Origin: Porticoccaceae bacterium
GTDB taxonomy: Bacteria; Pseudomonadota; Gammaproteobacteria; Pseudomonadales; Porticoccaceae
Direction of reading: 5' to 3'
NCBI GenBank assembly: GCA_024959305.1
Contig: JANXGQ010000036.1
Coordinates: forward strand, 8,624-72,623
DNA length: 64,000 nt
Under the pieces are notes generated by a model that was not told where the DNA came from, searched no databases, and was given only the letters and a program-made list of their open reading frames with translations. The stretch's first letter is position 1. The number at the start of each line of letters is the position of its first letter. A program made the position numbers and the translations under genes. Below are positions 26,102-33,768 of this stretch, piece after piece.

Positions 26102-26140
26102 TCCTAATTTCGCAGTTGAACTGTCAACGAAATCAATTTA

Positions 26141-26200
26141 AGCGCGATAACTGTGCAATTGACAGATTCTAGCCACTGCTCTACGCACCAATACTGTGCC
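26141..26200. promoter_or_regulatory. Two candidate NtrC-type enhancer sites
   Basis: AGCGCGATAACTGTGCA (26141-26157) and CGCACCAATACTGTGCC (26184-26200) partially match TGCACCA-N3-TGGTGCA and lie upstream of the sigma54-like promoter. Confidence 0.5.
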
Positions 26201-26249
26201 ACGCCAATAACCGCCGACTTAAAACTCTTGTCAGGAAACTTTTTTAGTT

Positions 26250-26265
26250 TGGCACGAATTTTGTA
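26250..26265 (+). promoter_or_regulatory. Candidate sigma54 (-24/-12) promoter of the nirB operon
   Basis: TGGCAC-GAATT-TTGTA vs consensus TGGCAC-N5-TTGCW; correct GG-N10-G spacing, one mismatch at -12. Confidence 0.62.
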
Positions 26266-26337
26266 TATGGTAGGGTAGAAAGGCGCTAGGTTGTCAACCC
26301 ACTCTTTTAAGGGCAGCAGCCTAGTGCATCATAAGAT

Positions 26338-26477
26338 GAGACCTTTGCACGGATAGAGATTTTGTTCTCAGACAAGGCAAAATCGCACGGAATAAGGGAG
26401 TTTATAGATCATAAATGACCGAATGAGTACGATTTTAACGCCGTATGAGGGCAAAAGATCATTTGCGCAAAGGTCTC
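26338..26477. mobile_element. 140-bp miniature inverted-repeat element (MITE) in the nirB leader
   Basis: TIRs GAGACCTTTGC / GCAAAGGTCTC (11 bp perfect, 12/13 extended). Direct repeat AAGAT on both flanks (26333-26337 and 26478-26482). Internal pairings AAAATCG...CGATTTT and TTTAT-agatc-ATAAA. No ORF. Confidence 0.8.
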
Positions 26478-26499
26478 AAGATAAGTGAAGGAAAAAATA

Positions 26500-29025
26500 A
26501 TGTTAAATGTAGTTGTAGTAGGTAACGGCATGGTGGGTCACCATTATGTGGCGCAGCTAGTGGATTCCGGTATTGATGCCAAAATTACCGTTATTGGTGG
26601 CGAACCCAGACCCGCTTATGATCGGGTTCACCTCTCGGAGTTTTTTGCCGGCCGGTCGCCAGAAGAACTGGCACTTACAACTAGAGAGCATTACGCTGAA
26701 TTGGGAGTCGATGCTCATTTTGGCGATCCTGTCGAGCGCATAGATCGCGACAATAAAACGGTCATTACTAACGCTGGCCGCAGCTTCTCCTACGACAAGC
26801 TAGTGCTGGCCACCGGCTCCTATCCCTTTGTGCCCCCAATAGCGGGCTCTGACCACCAAGCCTGTGCGGTGTACCGAACCATCGATGATTTAGGCAATAT
26901 TCAAGCACAGTCCAAAGGTGCAAAAGTAGGGGTTGTCGTGGGCGGCGGTCTGCTGGGTCTAGAAGCAGCCAATGCACTGCAAAATCTCGGCCTGGAAACC
27001 CATGTAGTCGAATTCGCACCCGGGCTAATGGGCGTGCAATTAGATACTGGTGGCAGCGCCATGTTGCGCCGCAAGATTGAGGCCCTAGGGGTGCAAGTAC
27101 ACACTAGAAAGGCCACAGAGGTCATTGAAGAAAATGTACAGGGCGAAACCCGCCTAGAGATGAAGTTTGCCGATGGCGAGTCGCTGGCCACAGATGTTAT
27201 TGTATTTTCTGCGGGAATTCGCCCCTATGATCAACTGGCACGGGATGCAGATCTCAAGGTTGGCGAACGCGGTGGAATTGACGTCGATTACCATTGTAAA
27301 ACCAGTGATTCAGATATTTTTGCTATAGGCGAATGCGCTCTGTTTGGCGGTCGTATCTTCGGTTTGGTAGCGCCAGGTTACCGCATGGCTGAGGCCGCAG
27401 TCAGCCAACTCGGCAACGATCCCATACCTTTTCAGGGTGCAGATATGAGCACCAAGCTAAAATTGCTCGGTGTAGATGTGGGTTCCATTGGCGATGCTCA
27501 CGGCAAGTGTGAAGGCTCCATTGCCTATACTTTTAGCGATGAGCGTATCGAAATCTACAAACGTATTATCGTCAGCGCAGATGGCAAAAAACTACTGGGC
27601 GCTGTTTTAGTCGGTGACTGCTCAGACTATGACAGCTTGCTCCAGTACTTTTTAAATGACATTGAGCTGCCCGCAGACCCTGAAACCTTAATTCTGCCTT
27701 ATAACGCCGGCTCTGCACCCACTTTGGGCGCCGCGGCACTGCCTGCCACCGCCACTATCTGCTCCTGCCACAATGTCAGCAAAGGCGATATTGTCGATGC
27801 GATGGAGGCGGGACACTGCTCCCTTGCCGCGGTAAAATCTGAAACCGCCGCCAGCACCGGTTGCGGTGGCTGTACCGCACTGCTGAAAAATATTGTCGAT
27901 ACCGAAATGGCCGAGCGCGGACTTGAAGTTGATACCTCGATCTGCGAACACTTTGCCCACACCCGCCAAGAGTTGTTCCATCTGATCAAAGTGGGCAGTA
28001 TCAAAAGCTTTGATGAGCTACTCGACAAACATGGCACGGGGCGCGGCTGTGATATCTGCAAGCCAGCGACCGGATCTATCCTCGCCTCACTGTGGAATGA
28101 CTATGTCTTAGAAGAAAAACATGTGGGCTTGCAGGATACCAACGATACATTTTTAGCCAATATGCAAAAAAACGGGACCTACTCTGTAGTTCCGCGAATT
28201 GCCGGTGGTGAAATCACTCCCGACAAACTGATTGTGCTGGGTCAGGTGGCGAAGAAATATAACCTCTATACAAAGATTACTGGAGGTCAGCGCATTGATT
28301 TATTCGGTGCGCGAGTGCAGCACCTGCCCGCTATCTGGAAAGAATTGGTCGAGGCCGGTTTTGAAACGGGTCACGCCTACGGCAAAGCATTGCGCACAGT
28401 GAAATCCTGTGTGGGCAGCACCTGGTGTAGATACGGCGTGCAAGACAGTGTCGCTATGGCTCTGTATGTAGAAAACCGCTACAAAGGCCTGCGCTCACCG
28501 CACAAGCTAAAATCCGCAGTGTCGGGCTGTACTCGGGAATGCGCCGAGGCCCAGTCTAAAGACTTTGGTGTGATAGCCACAGAAAATGGTTGGAATCTAT
28601 TTGTTTGCGGCAACGGCGGTATGAAACCACGCCATGCCGACCTGTTCGCCACTGATTTGGATGATGAAACTCTGATTAAATACATAGATCGCTTTTTAAT
28701 GTTCTATGTGCGCACCGCTGACCGCCTGCAGCGCACTTCTGTGTGGATGGACAACCTAGAGGGCGGTCTGGATTATCTCAAGCAGGTAGTGATCGAAGAT
28801 TCTCTGGGTATCGCCGCCGAACTTGAAGAACAGATGAACAATATTGTCGGCACCTATCAATGTGAGTGGAAAACCACCATTGAAGATCCTGAGCGTCTCA
28901 AGCGTTTTGTGCAGTTTGTTAATACTGACGAAGACGACGAGAAGATTATCTTTGTGCAGGAACGCGGACAGCCGCGACCGGCTACAGAAGAAGAGCGCCA
29001 GACACTACTGAAAGAAACTGCGTAG
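26500..29025 (+). CDS. nirB: Assimilatory nitrite reductase (NADH), large subunit
   Basis: VVVGNGMVGH, KLVLATGSYPFVPP, GGGLLGLEAA, CSCHNV/TGCGGC, CEHF...GCDICKP, RTVKSCVGSTWCRYG, GCTRECAEAQ siroheme/[4Fe-4S] ligands. Confidence 0.96.
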   Translation: MLNVVVVGNGMVGHHYVAQLVDSGIDAKITVIGGEPRPAYDRVHLSEFFAGRSPEELALTTREHYAELGVDAHFGDPVERIDRDNKTVITNAGRSFSYDKLVLATGSYPFVPPIAGSDHQACAVYRTIDDLGNIQAQSKGAKVGVVVGGGLLGLEAANALQNLGLETHVVEFAPGLMGVQLDTGGSAMLRRKIEALGVQVHTRKATEVIEENVQGETRLEMKFADGESLATDVIVFSAGIRPYDQLARDADLKVGERGGIDVDYHCKTSDSDIFAIGECALFGGRIFGLVAPGYRMAEAAVSQLGNDPIPFQGADMSTKLKLLGVDVGSIGDAHGKCEGSIAYTFSDERIEIYKRIIVSADGKKLLGAVLVGDCSDYDSLLQYFLNDIELPADPETLILPYNAGSAPTLGAAALPATATICSCHNVSKGDIVDAMEAGHCSLAAVKSETAASTGCGGCTALLKNIVDTEMAERGLEVDTSICEHFAHTRQELFHLIKVGSIKSFDELLDKHGTGRGCDICKPATGSILASLWNDYVLEEKHVGLQDTNDTFLANMQKNGTYSVVPRIAGGEITPDKLIVLGQVAKKYNLYTKITGGQRIDLFGARVQHLPAIWKELVEAGFETGHAYGKALRTVKSCVGSTWCRYGVQDSVAMALYVENRYKGLRSPHKLKSAVSGCTRECAEAQSKDFGVIATENGWNLFVCGNGGMKPRHADLFATDLDDETLIKYIDRFLMFYVRTADRLQRTSVWMDNLEGGLDYLKQVVIEDSLGIAAELEEQMNNIVGTYQCEWKTTIEDPERLKRFVQFVNTDEDDEKIIFVQERGQPRPATEEERQTLLKETA

Positions 29026-29033
29026 GAATTGAT

Positions 29034-29372
29034 ATGACCCAAGATAACAAACTAGTGGCTCTGTGCAAACAGTCCGACCTTATACCCAACTCAGGCATTT
29101 GTGCACGCGTAGGAGATCAACAGATTGCCCTATTCTATCTGCCCAAGGAAACGCCTCAGGTGTATGCCATTGGCGACTGGGACCCCATTGGCAAAGCCAA
29201 TGTGTTATCCCGAGGCATAGTCGGAGATATTGACGGGCGCATCGTTGTCGCCTCGCCACTCTATAAGCAGCACTTCGATCTTCACACCGGCGATTGCCTA
29301 GAAGACGCAACGGCCAATGTGCCCTGCTACCGCGTCAGCCTAGATGGCGATCAAGTGCTGATCGCACTTTAA
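29034..29372 (+). CDS. nirD: Nitrite reductase small subunit
   Basis: QIALF...YAIGDWDPIGKANVLSRGIVGD...VASPLYKQHFDLHTGDCLED. Confidence 0.95.
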   Translation: MTQDNKLVALCKQSDLIPNSGICARVGDQQIALFYLPKETPQVYAIGDWDPIGKANVLSRGIVGDIDGRIVVASPLYKQHFDLHTGDCLEDATANVPCYRVSLDGDQVLIAL

Positions 29373-29406
29373 ACGTAGATATGTACCAGATTTGGGACCT
29401 AATAAT

Positions 29407-31596
29407 ATGATTTTTGGACGGAAAAAGCGCAAACCAATCGTCATTCCTGCCAAGCCAGTCGCTGAGTGGAAATACACCACCTGTAACTATTGCTCGACCG
29501 GCTGCGCGATTGAAGTTGGCTTGAGCGAAGAGGGCAAAATCGTCTCCAGTCGCGGCCATGCGGGCGCGGATGTAAACCGCGGCAAGCTCTGCATCAAGGG
29601 AATTCTCGAGCACGATCTATTTCAATCGGCCGGGCGCGGCACCCAACCCCTGATGCGCAACCGCTTCCAAGAAGAATTTCAGCCAACCGACTGGGATACA
29701 GCTCTGGACCACAGCGCCGCCAAGATCAAGGAAATCCAACAGAAGTACGGCCGCGACAGTTTTGCCGTGGTGTCCACGGGCCAGCTGTACACCGAAGAGT
29801 TTTACACGCTGGGCAAGTTGGTGCGCGGCTGTATCGGCACCAACAATTACGATGGCAATACCACGCTGTGCATGGCGTCCGCGGTGGCCGGCTATAAGCG
29901 CTCCTTCGGCTCGGATGGCCCGCCAGGGTGCTACGAAGACTTTGAGCATACACAGTGCTTTATGGCATTCGGCTCCAACCTTCCAGAGCAACACCCGATT
30001 ATTTACTGGCGCCTGAAAGAAGCGCATGAAAAACGCGCCTTTCCGATTATCTGTGTCGACCCGCGGGTGACCATGCTGGCGCAGTTCGCAGATATTCACC
30101 TGCCGATTACACCAGGCACCGATTGCGTTCTGATCAACGCCATGCTGCATGTGATTATCTCTGAGGGCCTGCATGACGAGGAGTACATCCGCGCCCACAC
30201 CAATGGTTTCGAGGAACTCAAAGCCACGGTGGCAGACTATGACCCGGTTCAGGCCCAGCATATATGCGGTATTGACGAGGACATGATCCGCCATGTGGCA
30301 CGGCTTTACGCCAAAGCCGATGCGGCCATGTCAATCTGGACCATGGGCATCAATCAGAGTACCCACGGCACCGACGGCGTATGCAATATCAACAATCTAA
30401 ATTTGATAACGGGAAATATCGGCAAGCCCGGCGGCACCTCCCTGTCCATTACCGGCCAGTGTAATGCCATGGGCACCCGCGAGTGGTCGTCCTGCTCTGG
30501 ATTGCCCGGTTACCGCAAACTGGAAGAAGCGGCGCACCGCGAGGAAATCGCCGATTTTTGGGGAATCGATCCCGAGTTTTTCCCCAAGCAGCGCGGTTTA
30601 GCGCAAACTGATATCTTCCCAGCTATCGAGGCCGGTCAGATCAAGGGGCTGTGGCTGGTCGCCACCAACCCGCTCACGTCCATGCCCAATCAGGCGCGCA
30701 TGCGCAAGATGTTCGAAAAACTGGATTTTCTGATTGTGCAGGACGTGTACGAGGATGTGGAAACCAATCAGTATTCCCATGTATTTTTCCCCGCCGCGGT
30801 CTGGGCGGAGAAAGAGGGCTGTCAAACCAACACCGAGCGCCGCGTCAACCTAGTCCGCAAGGTGATTGAACCCATGGGCGATTGCAAGGCGGATTTCTGG
30901 ATCTTCCGCGAAATGGCCAAGCGCTTCGAAAACGGCCAAGTAATCAATTTCCCAGAAACCACTGAAGCCACCTTTGAAGAGATGAAAGAGCTATCGGTTG
31001 GCGCAGACCGCACGCTGGACATCTCGGGGATGACCTACAGCAAGATTGAACAGGCCAAGGGTATTCAGTGGCCCTATCGCGAGGATGCACAGGGGCTCAA
31101 AGGGGATGCTCGCCTCTATACCGACGGCAAATTCCAGACTCCAGACGGCAAGGCCAATCTGATTGCGGTCAAATTCCGCGACAACAACGAGAAGCCGGAC
31201 GACAGCTACCCCTTCTGGTGCAACAGCGGCCGCGTGGTCGAACATTTCCACACCCGCACCAAGACCGGAAAGATCGGCAACCAAAACAAGTTTAGCCCCA
31301 CGCCCTATATGGAAATTAATCCAGACGCGGCAGAGGAGCTCGGTGTCGAGCACCTGTCCTATGTGCGCCTAGTGTCCAGACGTGGTGATGCGGTGGTGCT
31401 GGCCCAGCTTACCCATCGGGTACCGCGCGACATGATATTTATCCCCTTCCATTTTTACGACTGCGTGAACCGGCTGACTCTGGGCCTGCTCGATCCCATC
31501 TCGCGGCAGCCCGCATTTAAGCAGTGCGCAGTGCGCATCGAAAAAGTCGACCAGCAGGAGGCCGCTCGCTTAAACGTTGAGCGCCGCACCTACTAA
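29407..31596 (+). CDS. nasA: Mo-bisPGD oxidoreductase of the NasA/NarB/NapA nitrate-reductase clade; about 730 aa, no C-terminal BFD extension, no Tat signal
   Basis: CNYCSTGC...GKLCIKG [4Fe-4S] motif, GNTTLCMASAV (Cys Mo ligand as in NapA/NarB), SITGQCNAMG, EGCQTNTERR, SGRVVEHFHTRTKT, FIPFHF, PAFKQCAV. Confidence 0.85.
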   Translation: MIFGRKKRKPIVIPAKPVAEWKYTTCNYCSTGCAIEVGLSEEGKIVSSRGHAGADVNRGKLCIKGILEHDLFQSAGRGTQPLMRNRFQEEFQPTDWDTALDHSAAKIKEIQQKYGRDSFAVVSTGQLYTEEFYTLGKLVRGCIGTNNYDGNTTLCMASAVAGYKRSFGSDGPPGCYEDFEHTQCFMAFGSNLPEQHPIIYWRLKEAHEKRAFPIICVDPRVTMLAQFADIHLPITPGTDCVLINAMLHVIISEGLHDEEYIRAHTNGFEELKATVADYDPVQAQHICGIDEDMIRHVARLYAKADAAMSIWTMGINQSTHGTDGVCNINNLNLITGNIGKPGGTSLSITGQCNAMGTREWSSCSGLPGYRKLEEAAHREEIADFWGIDPEFFPKQRGLAQTDIFPAIEAGQIKGLWLVATNPLTSMPNQARMRKMFEKLDFLIVQDVYEDVETNQYSHVFFPAAVWAEKEGCQTNTERRVNLVRKVIEPMGDCKADFWIFREMAKRFENGQVINFPETTEATFEEMKELSVGADRTLDISGMTYSKIEQAKGIQWPYREDAQGLKGDARLYTDGKFQTPDGKANLIAVKFRDNNEKPDDSYPFWCNSGRVVEHFHTRTKTGKIGNQNKFSPTPYMEINPDAAEELGVEHLSYVRLVSRRGDAVVLAQLTHRVPRDMIFIPFHFYDCVNRLTLGLLDPISRQPAFKQCAVRIEKVDQQEAARLNVERRTY

Positions 31597-31622
31597 ACGC
31601 CGCACCCATTAGGAATTGTGAT

Positions 31623-33578
31623 ATGAACGATCTCAGTAAAGCCCAGACCCTCGCAGGGGCAGCCAATGAAACCGCACAGGCCGACGGCAGTACCCTGTGG
31701 GAAATGCGCACTGAGGAACAGTCCTACGCCTTGCTGCCCGACCAAGAAATCAAGGACCAAAATTGCTACGGTCAAAAAATTGATCTGCTAGAGCTGACCG
31801 AAGGTGCCCTACCAAAGGACCGCCCGCTCTACATCAACGAAAATCCAGAGGTTGGCAGCAACCCCAACCGCAACAAGCAACATGCGTTTTTCTTTACTGC
31901 CGACAACTGTATCGGCTGCCACGCCTGTGAATCCGCCTGTGCGGAGAAGAACGAAACCCCAGCGCATCTGGCGTTTCGCTCGGTCGGTTACGTGGAGGGC
32001 GGTAGCTATCCAGACTATCAGCGCCTGAATATTTCCATGGCCTGCAATCATTGCGACGATCCGGTTTGTCTCAAGGGCTGCCCTACCGGTGCCTACACCA
32101 AGCACGCCGAGTACGGCGCCGTGCTACAGGACCCCGAAACCTGTTTCGGCTGTGGTTACTGCACCTGGGTGTGCCCCTATAACGCACCTCAGCTCGATCC
32201 TGTCGAGGGTCATGTCTCCAAGTGTAATATGTGTGTGGACCGCCTCGAAGTGGGCCTGAAGCCCGCCTGTGTCTCGGCCTGTGTGGGCAACGCCCTAGAT
32301 TTTGGCGTGGTTGAAAATATTCCAGAGAACCGCGAGGAAGCCAAGGTCAGTATCCCCGGCTTTCCGGACCCATCGATCACCCAACCCAATATCCGCTTCC
32401 AGCAGGTGAAGAAACTGCCGGATGAAATGACGCGCCCGGACTCGCAACCGGTCAAATATCACAAAGATAGCCACGGCAACTACAAGCCGAGCATCGATCA
32501 GAAAACCGGCGCAAAAAAATTCTGGAATCTGCGCCGCTTGAGCTCAAAGGAAAACCCCTTGGTGCTCTTTACACTGATGTCGCAAGCGGCAATCGGCGCC
32601 TTCGCCAGTATCTTCCTCGGCACGCAATTTGGACTGGATGGGTTCGTCGAATTTGCCGGATCATCCATGTACGCGCCCTTCGGCATGCTGTGTTTTTTAC
32701 TGGTCGGCTACGGACTCTTTATGTCCACTATGCATCTGGGCAAACCCCTGCGCTTCTATCGCGGGTTTAACAATTTGCGCCATTCTCCGGTATCTCGTGA
32801 AGGGCTGGGTATCGCCGCCTTTATGGGTTTTCTGGCCCTGCATATCCTCTGCAGTCTGCCCGCAAACGCCCTATTTGCCGACGCCTATCAGTATTTATTT
32901 GGAATAGAAATATCGAAATTGCTAAGCCCCGCACTCACGGCGGGCAGTGCCGCTGTACTGGGATATCTGGCGCTGATTTCCGCGATTGCCGGCCTCTACT
33001 ACATGACCCGTTGCTATCGCATTCCGGCGCGTCCATTCTGGGACCACTGGCAGGCATCTGCCACTTTCTTCGGCAGCAGCCTATCGCTCGGCGCTTTGGT
33101 GACCGGCCTAGTTGCTATCCCCACACTGATAATGAGCGCAAGCCAAATCGGTCCGGCGCTACAGATACTCGGCAGCATTCTCGCCTTGGGAGCTGTGCTC
33201 GAAGGCATCGGCCTGTACGTCCATCATCGGGATATGAGTAGCGCGGAACACGAGGGCGGCGCCTCCCACTATGTGCAACGCACCACCTTTGGCAAAAGCT
33301 ACCTGCTCAGAAATCTGCTGCTGGGCACCCTTAGCCTAGCCGCGGTGGCTCTGGTTATCTCTGGTTACAGCAATATCTGGGCGCTTGGTTGCTGGGGGCT
33401 AGTAGCCCTTATGCTAATTGGCAGCAGCCTAATCGGACGGGCGCTCTTTTATGTGCTGGTGATTCCAACCACCATGCCCGGCGCATTTTTCTGGCGCAAC
33501 AAGGGGTTTGAACAGCATGCACGGGATACCGGTCTGGCCAATATGCCGCAGGTGGGTGTAGTGCCCGATACCCACTAG
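31623..33578 (+). CDS. Fused DmsB-like 4x[4Fe-4S] ferredoxin plus DmsC/YnfH(NrfD)-type 8-TM membrane anchor
   Basis: CIGCHACESAC, CNHCDDPVCLKGCP, CFGCGYCTWVCPY, KCNMC...PACVSAC, then ENPLVLFTL, HLGKPLRFY...SPVSRE and GRALFY motifs with about 8 hydrophobic segments. Confidence 0.88.
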   Translation: MNDLSKAQTLAGAANETAQADGSTLWEMRTEEQSYALLPDQEIKDQNCYGQKIDLLELTEGALPKDRPLYINENPEVGSNPNRNKQHAFFFTADNCIGCHACESACAEKNETPAHLAFRSVGYVEGGSYPDYQRLNISMACNHCDDPVCLKGCPTGAYTKHAEYGAVLQDPETCFGCGYCTWVCPYNAPQLDPVEGHVSKCNMCVDRLEVGLKPACVSACVGNALDFGVVENIPENREEAKVSIPGFPDPSITQPNIRFQQVKKLPDEMTRPDSQPVKYHKDSHGNYKPSIDQKTGAKKFWNLRRLSSKENPLVLFTLMSQAAIGAFASIFLGTQFGLDGFVEFAGSSMYAPFGMLCFLLVGYGLFMSTMHLGKPLRFYRGFNNLRHSPVSREGLGIAAFMGFLALHILCSLPANALFADAYQYLFGIEISKLLSPALTAGSAAVLGYLALISAIAGLYYMTRCYRIPARPFWDHWQASATFFGSSLSLGALVTGLVAIPTLIMSASQIGPALQILGSILALGAVLEGIGLYVHHRDMSSAEHEGGASHYVQRTTFGKSYLLRNLLLGTLSLAAVALVISGYSNIWALGCWGLVALMLIGSSLIGRALFYVLVIPTTMPGAFFWRNKGFEQHARDTGLANMPQVGVVPDTH

Positions 33579-33716
33579 AGATTATTGCATTAGGGCGATA
33601 GTCAGGAACCAGCTAACAATTTCACGCTGGTTTCCTGAGCGATCAATATATTGGAGGGGTAAGCATTAGCCTAGCTATTTTAGCTCCTCGGAAAAATGGT
33701 AGCTTGCAATGGTCAA
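33578..33716. repeat. Degenerate MITE-like element immediately after the nitrate operon
   Basis: Left end GAGATTATTGCA and right end TGCAATGGTC (33705-33714) resemble the GAGACC(T/A)TTGCA TIR. Span is about 139 bp. Internal hairpin CAGGAACCAGC...GCTGGTTTCCTG. No clear TSD. Confidence 0.4.
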
Positions 33717-33768
33717 GCCCTGCTCACCGTTTTCAATTTTTCCTATGCTATTTTACAGTAATTTCGCT

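What the first reader, a model, noticed from the sequence alone, without database searches (positions are those of the whole stretch)
31623..33578. FeS-anchor fusion predicted to face the cytoplasm, inverted relative to canonical Dms/Psr complexes
Seen: neither the fusion nor the catalytic subunit has a Sec or twin-arginine signal. Taking 8 TM segments, the loops on the same side as the FeS domain (TM2-3 HLGKPLRFYRGFNNLRHSPVSRE, TM4-5 TRCYRIPARPFW, TM6-7 HHRD...QRTTFGKSYLLRN) carry 12 Lys/Arg, against 1 in the four opposite loops. Established: by the positive-inside rule the K/R-rich side is cytoplasmic, while DmsAB/PsrAB are Tat-exported and dock on the periplasmic face of their anchors. Inference: the NrfD-family anchor is used with inverted topology. 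This would change which side releases protons on quinol oxidation and so the energetic cost of nitrate assimilation. The first about 85 residues have no motif I recognise.
Basis: partly seen in the sequence, partly recalled or inferred. Interest (0 to 1): 0.72.

Follow-up and report, generated by a model that had tools for sequence, protein, structure and literature searches.

The report
Inward-facing membrane anchor for nitrate assimilation
The last gene of this nitrate-assimilation operon fuses an iron-sulfur electron wire to a quinol-binding membrane anchor that points into the cell, so the neighbouring nitrate reductase is probably fed from the respiratory quinone pool rather than from NADH or ferredoxin.

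Summary
ORF 31623-33578 encodes a 651-aa protein with four parts:
- a conserved 85-aa N-terminal extension;
- a DmsB-type domain with four [4Fe-4S] clusters (16 invariant Cys);
- an eight-helix DmsC/NrfD-type anchor;
- an invariant tail of about 37 aa.

Neither this protein nor the upstream NasA-type molybdoenzyme has a twin-arginine or hydrophobic signal. Lys/Arg counts are 21 on the FeS side and 1 on the other side. The same bias appears in 31 other family members. E. coli DmsC and YnfH show no such bias.

The inverted, cytoplasm-facing topology is therefore well supported. It is not unprecedented: SoeC of the sulfite dehydrogenase SoeABC is already described as an inverted NrfD-like anchor. 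All 40 standalone DmsC-family genes I fetched from Gammaproteobacteria sit in signal-less SoeABC-like operons.

What I found undescribed is the partner. A Nas-type nitrate reductase lies directly upstream of the fusion in all 80 named genomes examined. A 2020 phylogeny states that this enzyme clade has no such subunits.

The best reading is a membrane-bound, cytoplasm-facing quinol:nitrate oxidoreductase for assimilation. The energetic corollary is untested: flipping the quinol site and the active site together leaves the complex electroneutral unless protons are channelled outward. In this genus the cluster is accessory.

The parts
26250..26265 (+). Sigma-54-like -24/-12 element (TGGCACGAATTTTGTA) in the 383-bp gap upstream of nirB. 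Weak evidence.
   Evidence: It has one mismatch to TGGCAC-N5-TTGCW. The window as a whole has fewer matches than its shuffles, so the element is not significant on its own. Only its position is suggestive.
26485..29025 (+). nirB, large subunit of the NAD(P)H nitrite reductase
   Evidence: NCBIfam NF011565 at 1284 bits and TIGR02374 at 1069 bits, both above their cut-offs.
29034..29372 (+). nirD, small subunit of the nitrite reductase. It has the Rieske-like fold but lacks the CxH/CxxH cluster ligands.
   Evidence: TIGR02378 at 107.9 bits, above its cut-off. The sequence contains no CxH...CxxH motif, so it is unlikely to act as a NasG-type ferredoxin.
29392..31596 (+). Nas-type Mo-bisPGD nitrate reductase catalytic subunit. 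The likely true start is ATG 29407 (MIFGRKKRKP...). It has no export signal.
   Evidence: Pfam finds Molybdop_Fe4S4, Molybdopterin and Molydop_binding. NCBIfam NasC (516 bits), NasA (482 bits) and Fdh-alpha (589 bits) all score below their cut-offs. The active-site motif is C-M-A-S where formate dehydrogenase has C-H-G-P. The start M[IL]FGRKxRKP is conserved, and 0 of 64 homologues carry an RR motif.
31623..31877 (+). Fusion protein, N-terminal extension (aa 1-85). Residues 26-85 are conserved. No known family; not a signal peptide.
   Evidence: No Pfam or NCBIfam hit at E <= 10. Conservation is seen in alignment A1. Maximum hydropathy is 0.05 and there is no RR. pLDDT is 63-83.
31878..32327 (+). 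Fusion protein, DmsB-type domain with four [4Fe-4S] clusters (aa 86-235)
   Evidence: TIGR02951 E 1e-47 and Fer4_11. The 16 Cys at positions 96-220 are invariant in 110 sequences. PDB sequence hits are PsrB 2vpw_B and FdnH 1kqf_B.
32328..32552 (+). Fusion protein, linker (aa 236-310). It corresponds to the DmsB C-terminal region plus a K/R-rich stretch before TM1.
   Evidence: It holds 7 K/R in the last 25 residues. It is conserved in A1. It has no Pfam hit.
32553..33464 (+). Fusion protein, DmsC/NrfD-type anchor with eight helices (aa 311-614). The quinol-site residues are retained.
   Evidence: PF04976 at 57 bits. The fold matches ActC 8k9e_C (TMt 0.54) and PsrC 2vpw_C (TMt 0.53). H371, E393 and R606 align with DmsC H65, E87 and R271 and are invariant.
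33465..33578 (+). Fusion protein, invariant cytoplasmic C-terminal tail (aa 615-651) and stop codon
   Evidence: It is almost invariant in 110 sequences. It is absent from E. coli DmsC/YnfH and from the SoeC-like proteins. The model has a helix at 618-636.

Best explanation
The two genes at 29392-33578 encode a membrane-bound assimilatory nitrate reductase that faces the cytoplasm.

Proposed mechanism:
- The fusion protein inserts with its N-terminus inside. Its DmsB-type four-cluster domain, the HLGKP quinol-site loop, the other K/R-rich loops and the conserved C-tail all lie on the cytoplasmic face.
- Electrons pass along the four [4Fe-4S] clusters to the FS0 cluster and the Mo-bisPGD cofactor of the signal-less Nas-type subunit docked on the FeS domain.
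- Nitrate is reduced to nitrite in the cytoplasm. NirBD from the same operon reduces the nitrite to ammonium.

Shown here: domain composition, conserved cluster and quinol-site ligands, absence of signals, helix count, charge bias, and strict gene pairing.

Inferred: the physical complex, quinol as electron donor, and the direction of proton release.

If quinol protons are released locally, the enzyme is electroneutral. It would still save energy relative to an NADH-dependent Nas, because electrons can first pass a coupling NADH dehydrogenase.
For: - Architecture and conserved ligands: 16 Cys, plus H371, E393 and R606, which match DmsC H65, E87 and R271. The Calisto and Pereira review cites mutational work on DmsC H65 and names R271 as the conserved TM8 arginine; that E87 is functionally important is my own recollection.
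- No RR pair or hydrophobic leader in either protein. 0 of 64 partner N-termini carry an RR motif.
- Eight helices by hydropathy and by the AlphaFold model, with a PsrC/ActC fold.
- K/R 21 against 1 here, and 21.0 against 0.6 in 31 other members. E. coli DmsC and YnfH score about 3:3 and 2:2 in the same columns.
- A NasA-type gene lies directly upstream in all 80 named genome loci, often with nirBD and cobA.
- The active site is of the nitrate reductase type, C-M-A-S.
- NirD lacks Rieske ligands, so no other FeS donor is encoded in the operon.
- A NarK-family transporter is present elsewhere in the genome.
- In the JGI/IMG annotation, one relative and a truncated copy of another (441 aa in the JGI record) are named 'nitrate reductase (quinol-dependent), transmembrane subunit'.
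Against: - There is no experimental evidence of any kind.
- The FeS domain is poorly modelled (pLDDT 26-50). Docking of the FeS domain on the anchor face is deduced from connectivity, not seen in the model.
- The catalytic subunit scores below the cut-off of every curated Nas model, and its best NCBIfam hit is formate dehydrogenase alpha.
- NirB is encoded alongside, so an NADH route to NasA through NirB is not formally excluded.
- The genome has TatC, so export is not impossible in principle.
Confidence: 0.7

Rival explanations
1. The fusion faces the cytoplasm, but quinol is not the physiological donor. NasA would receive electrons from NADH through NirB, or from a soluble ferredoxin or flavodoxin. 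The fusion would then only tether the enzyme to the membrane or act as an overflow route to or from the quinone pool.
For: nirB is in the same operon. In Paracoccus, NasC is fed through the NirB-type NasB and the Rieske protein NasG (my own knowledge).
Against: NirD here lacks the Rieske cluster ligands. All 16 cluster Cys and the quinol-site His, Glu and Arg are invariant across 110 sequences, which argues that the whole wire and the Q site are in use. The nasA-fusion pair also occurs without nirBD within 7 kb in about half of the 80 loci.
Confidence: 0.1
2. The molybdoenzyme is not a nitrate reductase. It would be another Fdh/Nap-clade enzyme, for example a cytoplasm-facing formate:quinone oxidoreductase or a reductase for another oxyanion, and its position beside nirBD would be incidental.
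For: The best NCBIfam and PDB sequence hits are formate dehydrogenase alpha subunits (TIGR01591 at 589 bits; 7bkb_D). The curated Nas models are not met.
Against: The residue after the Mo-ligand Cys is Met (C-M-A-S), as in NapA/Nas by my own knowledge, and not His as in the aligned formate dehydrogenase. The pair sits with nirBD, cobA and a NarK-type transporter in many genomes.
Confidence: 0.06
3. The topology is canonical. The FeS domain and NasA would reach the periplasm by a cryptic route, so the anchor would be oriented like DmsC.
For: The genome encodes TatC. The conserved basic N-terminus of NasA (MIFGRKKRKP) might be a degenerate leader.
Against: There is no RR pair and no hydrophobic h-region in either protein. 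The K/R bias of 21:1 would be violated on every loop. A 310-aa cofactor-bearing N-terminal domain would have to cross the membrane without a signal. Nitrite would be made on the wrong side for NirBD. None of 64 homologous partner N-termini has an RR motif.
Confidence: 0.03

Closest known systems
SoeABC sulfite:quinone oxidoreductase (Allochromatium vinosum, Aquifex aeolicus)
   Same: It is a complex iron-sulfur molybdoenzyme with signal-less subunits and a four-cluster FeS protein. Its eight-helix DmsC/NrfD-type anchor is described as inverted, with the quinone site at the cytoplasmic side (PMC8076601). The 40 SoeABC-like operons I fetched show the same K/R bias, 12.0 against 0.5, and the same HLxxP...SREx and R-in-TM8 motifs.
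   Different: SoeA is a molybdoprotein of about 965 aa from another clade. It oxidises sulfite and reduces quinone, so electrons flow the other way. SoeB and SoeC are separate proteins and lack the N-terminal extension and the C-tail. The anchor tree does not resolve whether the fusion is closer to SoeC or to DmsC. The FeS domain groups weakly with E. coli DmsB/YnfG rather than with SoeB.
DmsABC / YnfFGH DMSO-selenate reductases of E. coli
   Same: The FeS domain is most like DmsB (TIGR02951 E 1e-47; 36% identity). The anchor aligns along its whole length with DmsC (23% identity), and H65, E87 and R271 are conserved.
   Different: DmsA carries a twin-arginine leader (SRRGLV), and DmsAB sit on the periplasmic face. 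DmsB and DmsC are separate proteins. DmsC and YnfH lack the one-sided K/R bias.
Soluble assimilatory nitrate reductases NasA/NasC/NarB
   Same: The catalytic subunit has the same three Pfam domains, an N-terminal FS0 cluster motif and a Cys-Met active site. It is cytoplasmic and lies in an operon with nirBD.
   Different: The known enzymes take electrons from NAD(P)H modules, ferredoxin or flavodoxin, and are not membrane-bound. Wells et al. 2020 state that no member of this clade is associated with four-cluster or anchor subunits (PMC7331816). This subunit falls below the curated NasC and NasA cut-offs.
NarGHI respiratory nitrate reductase
   Same: It is a quinol:nitrate oxidoreductase whose catalytic and FeS subunits lie on the cytoplasmic face.
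   Different: The NarI anchor is an unrelated di-haem cytochrome b that oxidises quinol at the periplasmic side, giving a redox loop. NarG and NarH belong to other clades (NarG 42 bits and NarH 55 bits here).

Membership tests
DmsC/NrfD-like quinone-interacting anchors (PF04976; NrfD-like superfamily) | Profile match above the curated cut-off | tested here: met
   PF04976 at 57 bits against a cut-off of 22.3, covering residues 309-612 and profile positions 6-275.
DmsC/NrfD-like quinone-interacting anchors (PF04976; NrfD-like superfamily) | Eight-helix core made of two four-helix bundles, with no redox cofactor | tested here: met
   Eight helices by hydropathy and by the AlphaFold model. Foldseek matches ActC 8k9e_C (TMt 0.54) and PsrC 2vpw_C (TMt 0.53).
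DmsC/NrfD-like quinone-interacting anchors (PF04976; NrfD-like superfamily) | Quinol-site His or acidic residue at the end of TM2, and a conserved Arg in TM8 | tested here: met
   H371 aligns with DmsC H65 and R606 with R271. Both are invariant in 110 sequences. The residues are named in PMC8076601.
DmsC/NrfD-like quinone-interacting anchors (PF04976; NrfD-like superfamily) | Peripheral subunits and quinone site on the periplasmic (P) side, the usual arrangement | tested here: not met
   K/R 21 against 1, no signals, and an N-terminal FeS domain. SoeC is the published exception.
Complex iron-sulfur molybdoenzymes (A-B-C type) | Mo-bisPGD subunit with FS0, a four-cluster protein and a membrane anchor encoded together | tested here: met
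   The Pfam domains of P0002 and P0001, 16 Cys, and adjacency in 80 of 80 loci. B and C are fused here.
SoeABC | SoeA-type catalytic subunit (about 965 aa, sulfite-oxidising clade) | tested here: not met
   The partner here is a Nas/Nap/Fdh-clade protein of 729-734 aa. The SoeA-like neighbours of standalone anchors are 958-996 aa and have a different N-terminus.
SoeABC | Signal-less subunits and an inward-facing anchor | tested here: met
Assimilatory nitrate reductase NasA/NasC/NarB | Curated equivalog model score | tested here: not met
   NF047855 NasC at 516 bits against a cut-off of 1100. NF041323 NasA at 482 bits against 1000.
Assimilatory nitrate reductase NasA/NasC/NarB | Cytoplasmic Mo-bisPGD enzyme with FS0 and a Cys Mo ligand followed by Met, encoded with nitrite reductase genes | tested here: met
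Assimilatory nitrate reductase NasA/NasC/NarB | Nitrate reduction supporting growth on nitrate | not testable with these tools
   This needs enzyme assays or genetics.
NarGHI | NarI di-haem b anchor, with NarG and NarH subunits | tested here: not met
   narG at 42 bits and narH at 55 bits, far below their cut-offs. The anchor is DmsC-type and has no haem ligand pattern.

The most novel reading that the evidence does not exclude
The inverted anchor may keep a working NrfD-type proton path through the conserved TM8 arginine (R606). Protons from quinol oxidised at the cytoplasmic-side site would then be delivered to the periplasm. The enzyme would be an electrogenic assimilatory nitrate reductase without haem. 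Like NarGHI it would conserve energy, up to 2 H+ per 2 e-, while making nitrite for biosynthesis. This would be a new bioenergetic class of nitrate reductase, widespread in marine and freshwater Proteobacteria.
Probability: 0.12. Interest if true: 0.85.

Novelty: new variant of a known kind. Interest (0 to 1): 0.6.

Why it matters
Textbooks list NADH-, ferredoxin- and flavodoxin-dependent assimilatory nitrate reductases, all of them soluble. A quinol-fed, membrane-bound enzyme would add a further donor class.

It would link nitrate assimilation to the redox state of the respiratory chain, and it would lower the cost of using nitrate, because electrons can pass a coupling NADH dehydrogenase first.

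The gene pair is common:
- at least 54 of 400 sampled Gammaproteobacteria carry it;
- more than 3,500 protein clusters share the architecture;
- it also occurs in Burkholderiales.

It is present in abundant marine heterotrophs, so it bears on how nasA surveys and nitrogen-cycle models are read.

It also gives a second natural case, with B and C fused, of a NrfD-type anchor working upside down. That is useful for testing how this family handles protons. Many database records name the protein wrongly, as aspartate carbamoyltransferase or DMSO reductase subunit.

Tried and rejected
1. Placing the anchor relative to SoeC and DmsC. A maximum-likelihood tree with E. coli NrfD and HybB as outgroups gave an unresolved three-way split with very long outgroup branches. 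The FeS-domain tree groups the fusion with DmsB/YnfG at SH-aLRT 90 only. Whether the inversion arose once or twice stays open.

2. AlphaFold model of the whole fusion. The anchor is confident, but the FeS domain is not (pLDDT 26-50). Foldseek hits to the FeS part are weak.

3. HMM searches of the 85-aa N-terminal extension, the linker, and the small downstream ORF seen in relatives found nothing in Pfam or NCBIfam.

4. NCBIfam has no model that matches the anchor part alone.

5. Literature. Six searches of the library for a described NasA-DmsBC or quinol-dependent assimilatory enzyme found none (and for SoeABC). Subscription-only papers are not covered.

6. The search for ANTAR regulators was uninformative, because the control genomes did not match either.

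7. The sigma-54 pattern scan is not significant across the window.

9. I considered that the cluster could be an assembly chimera and rejected this. Both flanks (recG, DUF47 and Pit on one side; pgk, epd and tkt on the other) are syntenic with same-genus genomes.
Full report
**What is there**

The + strand between 26485 and 33578 carries four tightly spaced genes:
- nirB, 846 aa (NF011565 at 1284 bits);
- nirD, 112 aa;
- a 734-aa Mo-bisPGD protein;
- the 651-aa ORF of the finding.

The 651-aa protein has, in order:
- an 85-residue N-terminal extension with no hit in Pfam or NCBIfam even at E <= 10;
- a DmsB-type four-cluster domain (TIGR02951 E 1e-47; Fer4_11);
- a linker;
- a PF04976 DmsC domain (57 bits, cut-off 22.3);
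- a tail of 37 residues.

The 16 cluster Cys are at 96/99/102/106, 141/144/149/153, 174/177/180/184 and 201/204/216/220. All are invariant in an alignment of 110 family members (A1).

The gene is preceded by AGGA ten bases before the ATG, and lies 26 bases after the stop of the molybdoenzyme gene.

**Check of the observation**

Hydropathy gives eight membrane segments. An AlphaFold model built on A1 (pTM 0.76) shows eight long helices at the same places with pLDDT about 90-98, plus short loop helices and a C-terminal helix at 618-636. Foldseek places the anchor with ActC (8k9e_C, TMt 0.54) and PsrC (2vpw_C, TMt 0.53).

Lys/Arg counts per segment, with the FeS-side segments first:
- 25-residue linker before TM1: 7
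- TM2-3 loop: 5
- TM4-5 loop: 3
- TM6-7 loop: 3
- first 25 residues of the tail: 3
- the four opposite loops: 0, 1, 0, 0

The total is 21 against 1. Binomial P = 0.007 given the loop lengths, or 0.017 for internal loops only.

There is no RR pair in the first 90 residues of the fusion or the first 60 of the molybdoenzyme. Neither region has a hydrophobic stretch (maximum 15-residue hydropathy 0.05 and 0.70, against 1.84 for TM1).

**Is the bias meaningful?**

I aligned the anchor with 31 other family members, 40 standalone DmsC-family proteins from Gammaproteobacteria, and E. coli DmsC and YnfH. I then counted K/R in the same alignment columns.

| Group | FeS-side K/R | Opposite-side K/R |
|---|---|---|
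| Fusion family (31 other members; this window 21 / 1) | 21.0 (minimum 19) | 0.6 (maximum 2) |
| Standalone proteins (n = 40) | 12.0 | 0.5 |
| E. coli DmsC | about 3 | about 3 |
| E. coli YnfH | about 2 | about 2 |

A count of DmsC by eye gives 4 on the side of the termini and 8 on the other side. That fits its published topology with the N-terminus outside (my own knowledge: Weiner et al. 1993).

Because the helix count is even, the N-terminal FeS domain, the TM2-3 loop and the C-tail must lie on one side whatever the orientation. That side is strongly positive.

The motifs that mark the quinol site in DmsC are kept and invariant:
- H371 in MHLGKP aligns with DmsC H65;
- E393 in VSRE aligns with E87;
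- R606 in LIGRALFY aligns with R271.

H65 and R271 are named as functional positions in PMC8076601; E87 I add from my own knowledge (Zhao and Weiner 1998).

**The partner**

The 734-aa protein has Molybdop_Fe4S4, Molybdopterin and Molydop_binding domains. It scores 516 bits on the NasC model and 482 bits on the NasA model, both below their cut-offs. Its best curated hit is formate dehydrogenase alpha, also below its cut-off.

In the alignment to a solved formate dehydrogenase, the Mo-ligand Cys is followed by Met-Ala-Ser, where the dehydrogenase has His-Gly-Pro. This is the Nap/Nas pattern (my own knowledge).

Homologues begin M[IL]FGRKxRKP, about 20 residues before the first cluster Cys. The likely start here is therefore ATG 29407. 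None of 64 full-length homologous N-termini has an RR motif.

**Conservation of the pairing**

More than 3,500 clusters with the same architecture were found at 66-78% identity.

In 80 named genome loci the Nas-type gene is directly upstream on the same strand in every case. My script flagged 72. Seven more show the same NasA-then-fusion order in the printed gene rows and were missed only because of over-long ORF calls or gaps beyond my threshold; the one remaining locus was not printed and I take it to follow the same order.

Within 7 kb, nirB occurs in 33 loci and cobA in 20. In Simiduia the neighbours are cobA, nirB, nirD and an MFS transporter.

The carriers include:
- Cellvibrionales-type taxa: Porticoccus, Zhongshania, Litorivivens, Teredinibacter, Simiduia;
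- Alteromonadales: Colwellia, Shewanella, Pseudoalteromonas, Moritella;
- Oleispira and Methylophaga;
- many Burkholderiales: Rhodoferax, Roseateles, Polaromonas.

In an even sample of 400 Gammaproteobacteria, at least 54 genomes hold a DmsC match inside an open frame of 585-743 aa. This is my count of the rows listed, and that list was truncated.

**What is already known**

Calisto and Pereira (PMC8076601) list SoeC among NrfD-like subunits. [quoted passage not shown] The idea of an upside-down anchor in this family is therefore published.

My sample shows that this arrangement is common. All 40 standalone DmsC-family genes I fetched lie behind a four-cluster protein of 231-255 aa. Wherever the contig reached far enough, a molybdoprotein gene lies beside that, 958-996 aa in most loci. 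The RR-motif scan matched none of these N-termini except one spurious match (RRGGG, no hydrophobic region) in an over-extended 1025-aa ORF call; this is the SoeABC layout.

The pairing with a Nas-type subunit, by contrast, contradicts a published generalisation. Wells et al. 2020 state that none of the NasA/NasC, AioA, NapA and related formate dehydrogenase clade is associated with the canonical four-cluster or anchor subunits (PMC7331816).

Six library searches found no description of the pair. The only sign of recognition is a JGI/IMG product name, 'nitrate reductase (quinol-dependent), transmembrane subunit', on two relatives. Other records call the protein a DMSO reductase subunit or, wrongly, aspartate carbamoyltransferase.

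Earlier AI notes from this scan reach the same reading in other genomes. I treated them as leads and repeated the tests here.

**Mechanism and energetics**

The most likely mechanism has four steps:
1. Quinol is oxidised at the cytoplasm-proximal site in helices 1-4.
2. Electrons pass along the four clusters to FS0 and the Mo centre of NasA.
3. Nitrate is reduced to nitrite in the cytoplasm.
4. NirBD reduces the nitrite.

NirD lacks Rieske ligands, so the fusion is the only FeS carrier encoded beside NasA.

The quinol site and the active site are flipped together. Proton release and proton uptake therefore both occur inside, and the complex should be electroneutral, as DmsABC is on the other face.

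The gain is relative to an NADH-dependent Nas, because electrons may first pass a coupling NADH dehydrogenase. The loss is relative to NarGHI, because there is no redox loop. An outward proton path through the conserved TM8 arginine cannot be excluded. That is the bold reading.

**Local history**

The genome is small (1.58 Mb, 96% complete, 48.3% G+C).
- None of 18 genomes of the same genus has the fusion.
- The cluster lies between the Pit phosphate transporter gene and pgk. Both are syntenic in relatives.
- In the nearest relative (Pit 93% identical) the same gap holds only a class II fructose-bisphosphate aldolase gene. Other species carry other genes there.
- nasA and the fusion have 56% G+C.

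The four genes thus look like a cassette gained at a variable site. This fits the view that they work together. A NarK-family transporter and cobA lie on other contigs. The genome has TatC and no NarJ/TorD-family chaperone.

**Limits**

- All functional statements are inferences from sequence.
- The FeS domain of the model is unreliable.
- The anchor tree does not show whether the inversion is shared with SoeC.

Noticed in passing
window 26102-33768; loci L129-L133: The nirBD-nasA-fusion cluster is absent from all 18 sampled genomes of the same genus. It sits between Pit and pgk, a variable site. The nearest relative has only a class II fructose-bisphosphate aldolase gene there. This genome gives no tblastn hit to that aldolase at all.
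   Followed up: partly
L001 10069-10440; L002 3662-4045; 33 of the 80 loci L046-L125: A conserved ORF of about 125 aa (…ILPPNL.AW..AP.G.Y.H..SGVD..NPD.LVTW…QHEWW.W.PN…) lies directly downstream of the fusion gene in 33 of 80 genomes. It has no Pfam hit. It is missing from this window and from the whole genome. It may be an accessory or assembly factor.
   Followed up: partly
L005-L044 (40 gammaproteobacterial loci): Every standalone PF04976 (DmsC) gene fetched from the class sample lies in a signal-less A (about 965 aa) - B (about 231-243 aa) - C operon of the SoeABC type. There are two sequence subgroups. In non-enteric Gammaproteobacteria the 'DMSO reductase anchor' annotation therefore mostly marks inward-facing enzymes.
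   Followed up: partly
proteins P0016, P0127, P0128, P0132, P0133, P0210, P0220, P0243: Several public records name fusion-family proteins 'aspartate carbamoyltransferase'. This is a clear annotation error that has spread across records.
   Followed up: no
window 26186-26265: A sigma-54-like element (TGGCACGAATTTTGTA) with an imperfect NtrC-like palindrome (CGCACCAATACTGTGCC) about 50 bp upstream, in the nirB leader. It is suggestive of nitrogen control but not statistically supported.
   Followed up: partly
genome contig C3 33311-35353 and 26085-27062: A second Fdh/Nas-clade molybdoenzyme gene (28% identical to the window's NasA) lies about 6 kb from moaA on another contig. It has no DmsB or DmsC partner, and its function was not examined.
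   Followed up: no
window 29392-29440: The Nas-type subunits of this family start with a conserved basic peptide, M[IL]FGRKxRKPIxIP, just before the FS0 cluster motif. It is not a Tat leader. It might be a docking or chaperone-binding remnant, yet this genome has no NarJ/TorD-family gene.
   Followed up: partly
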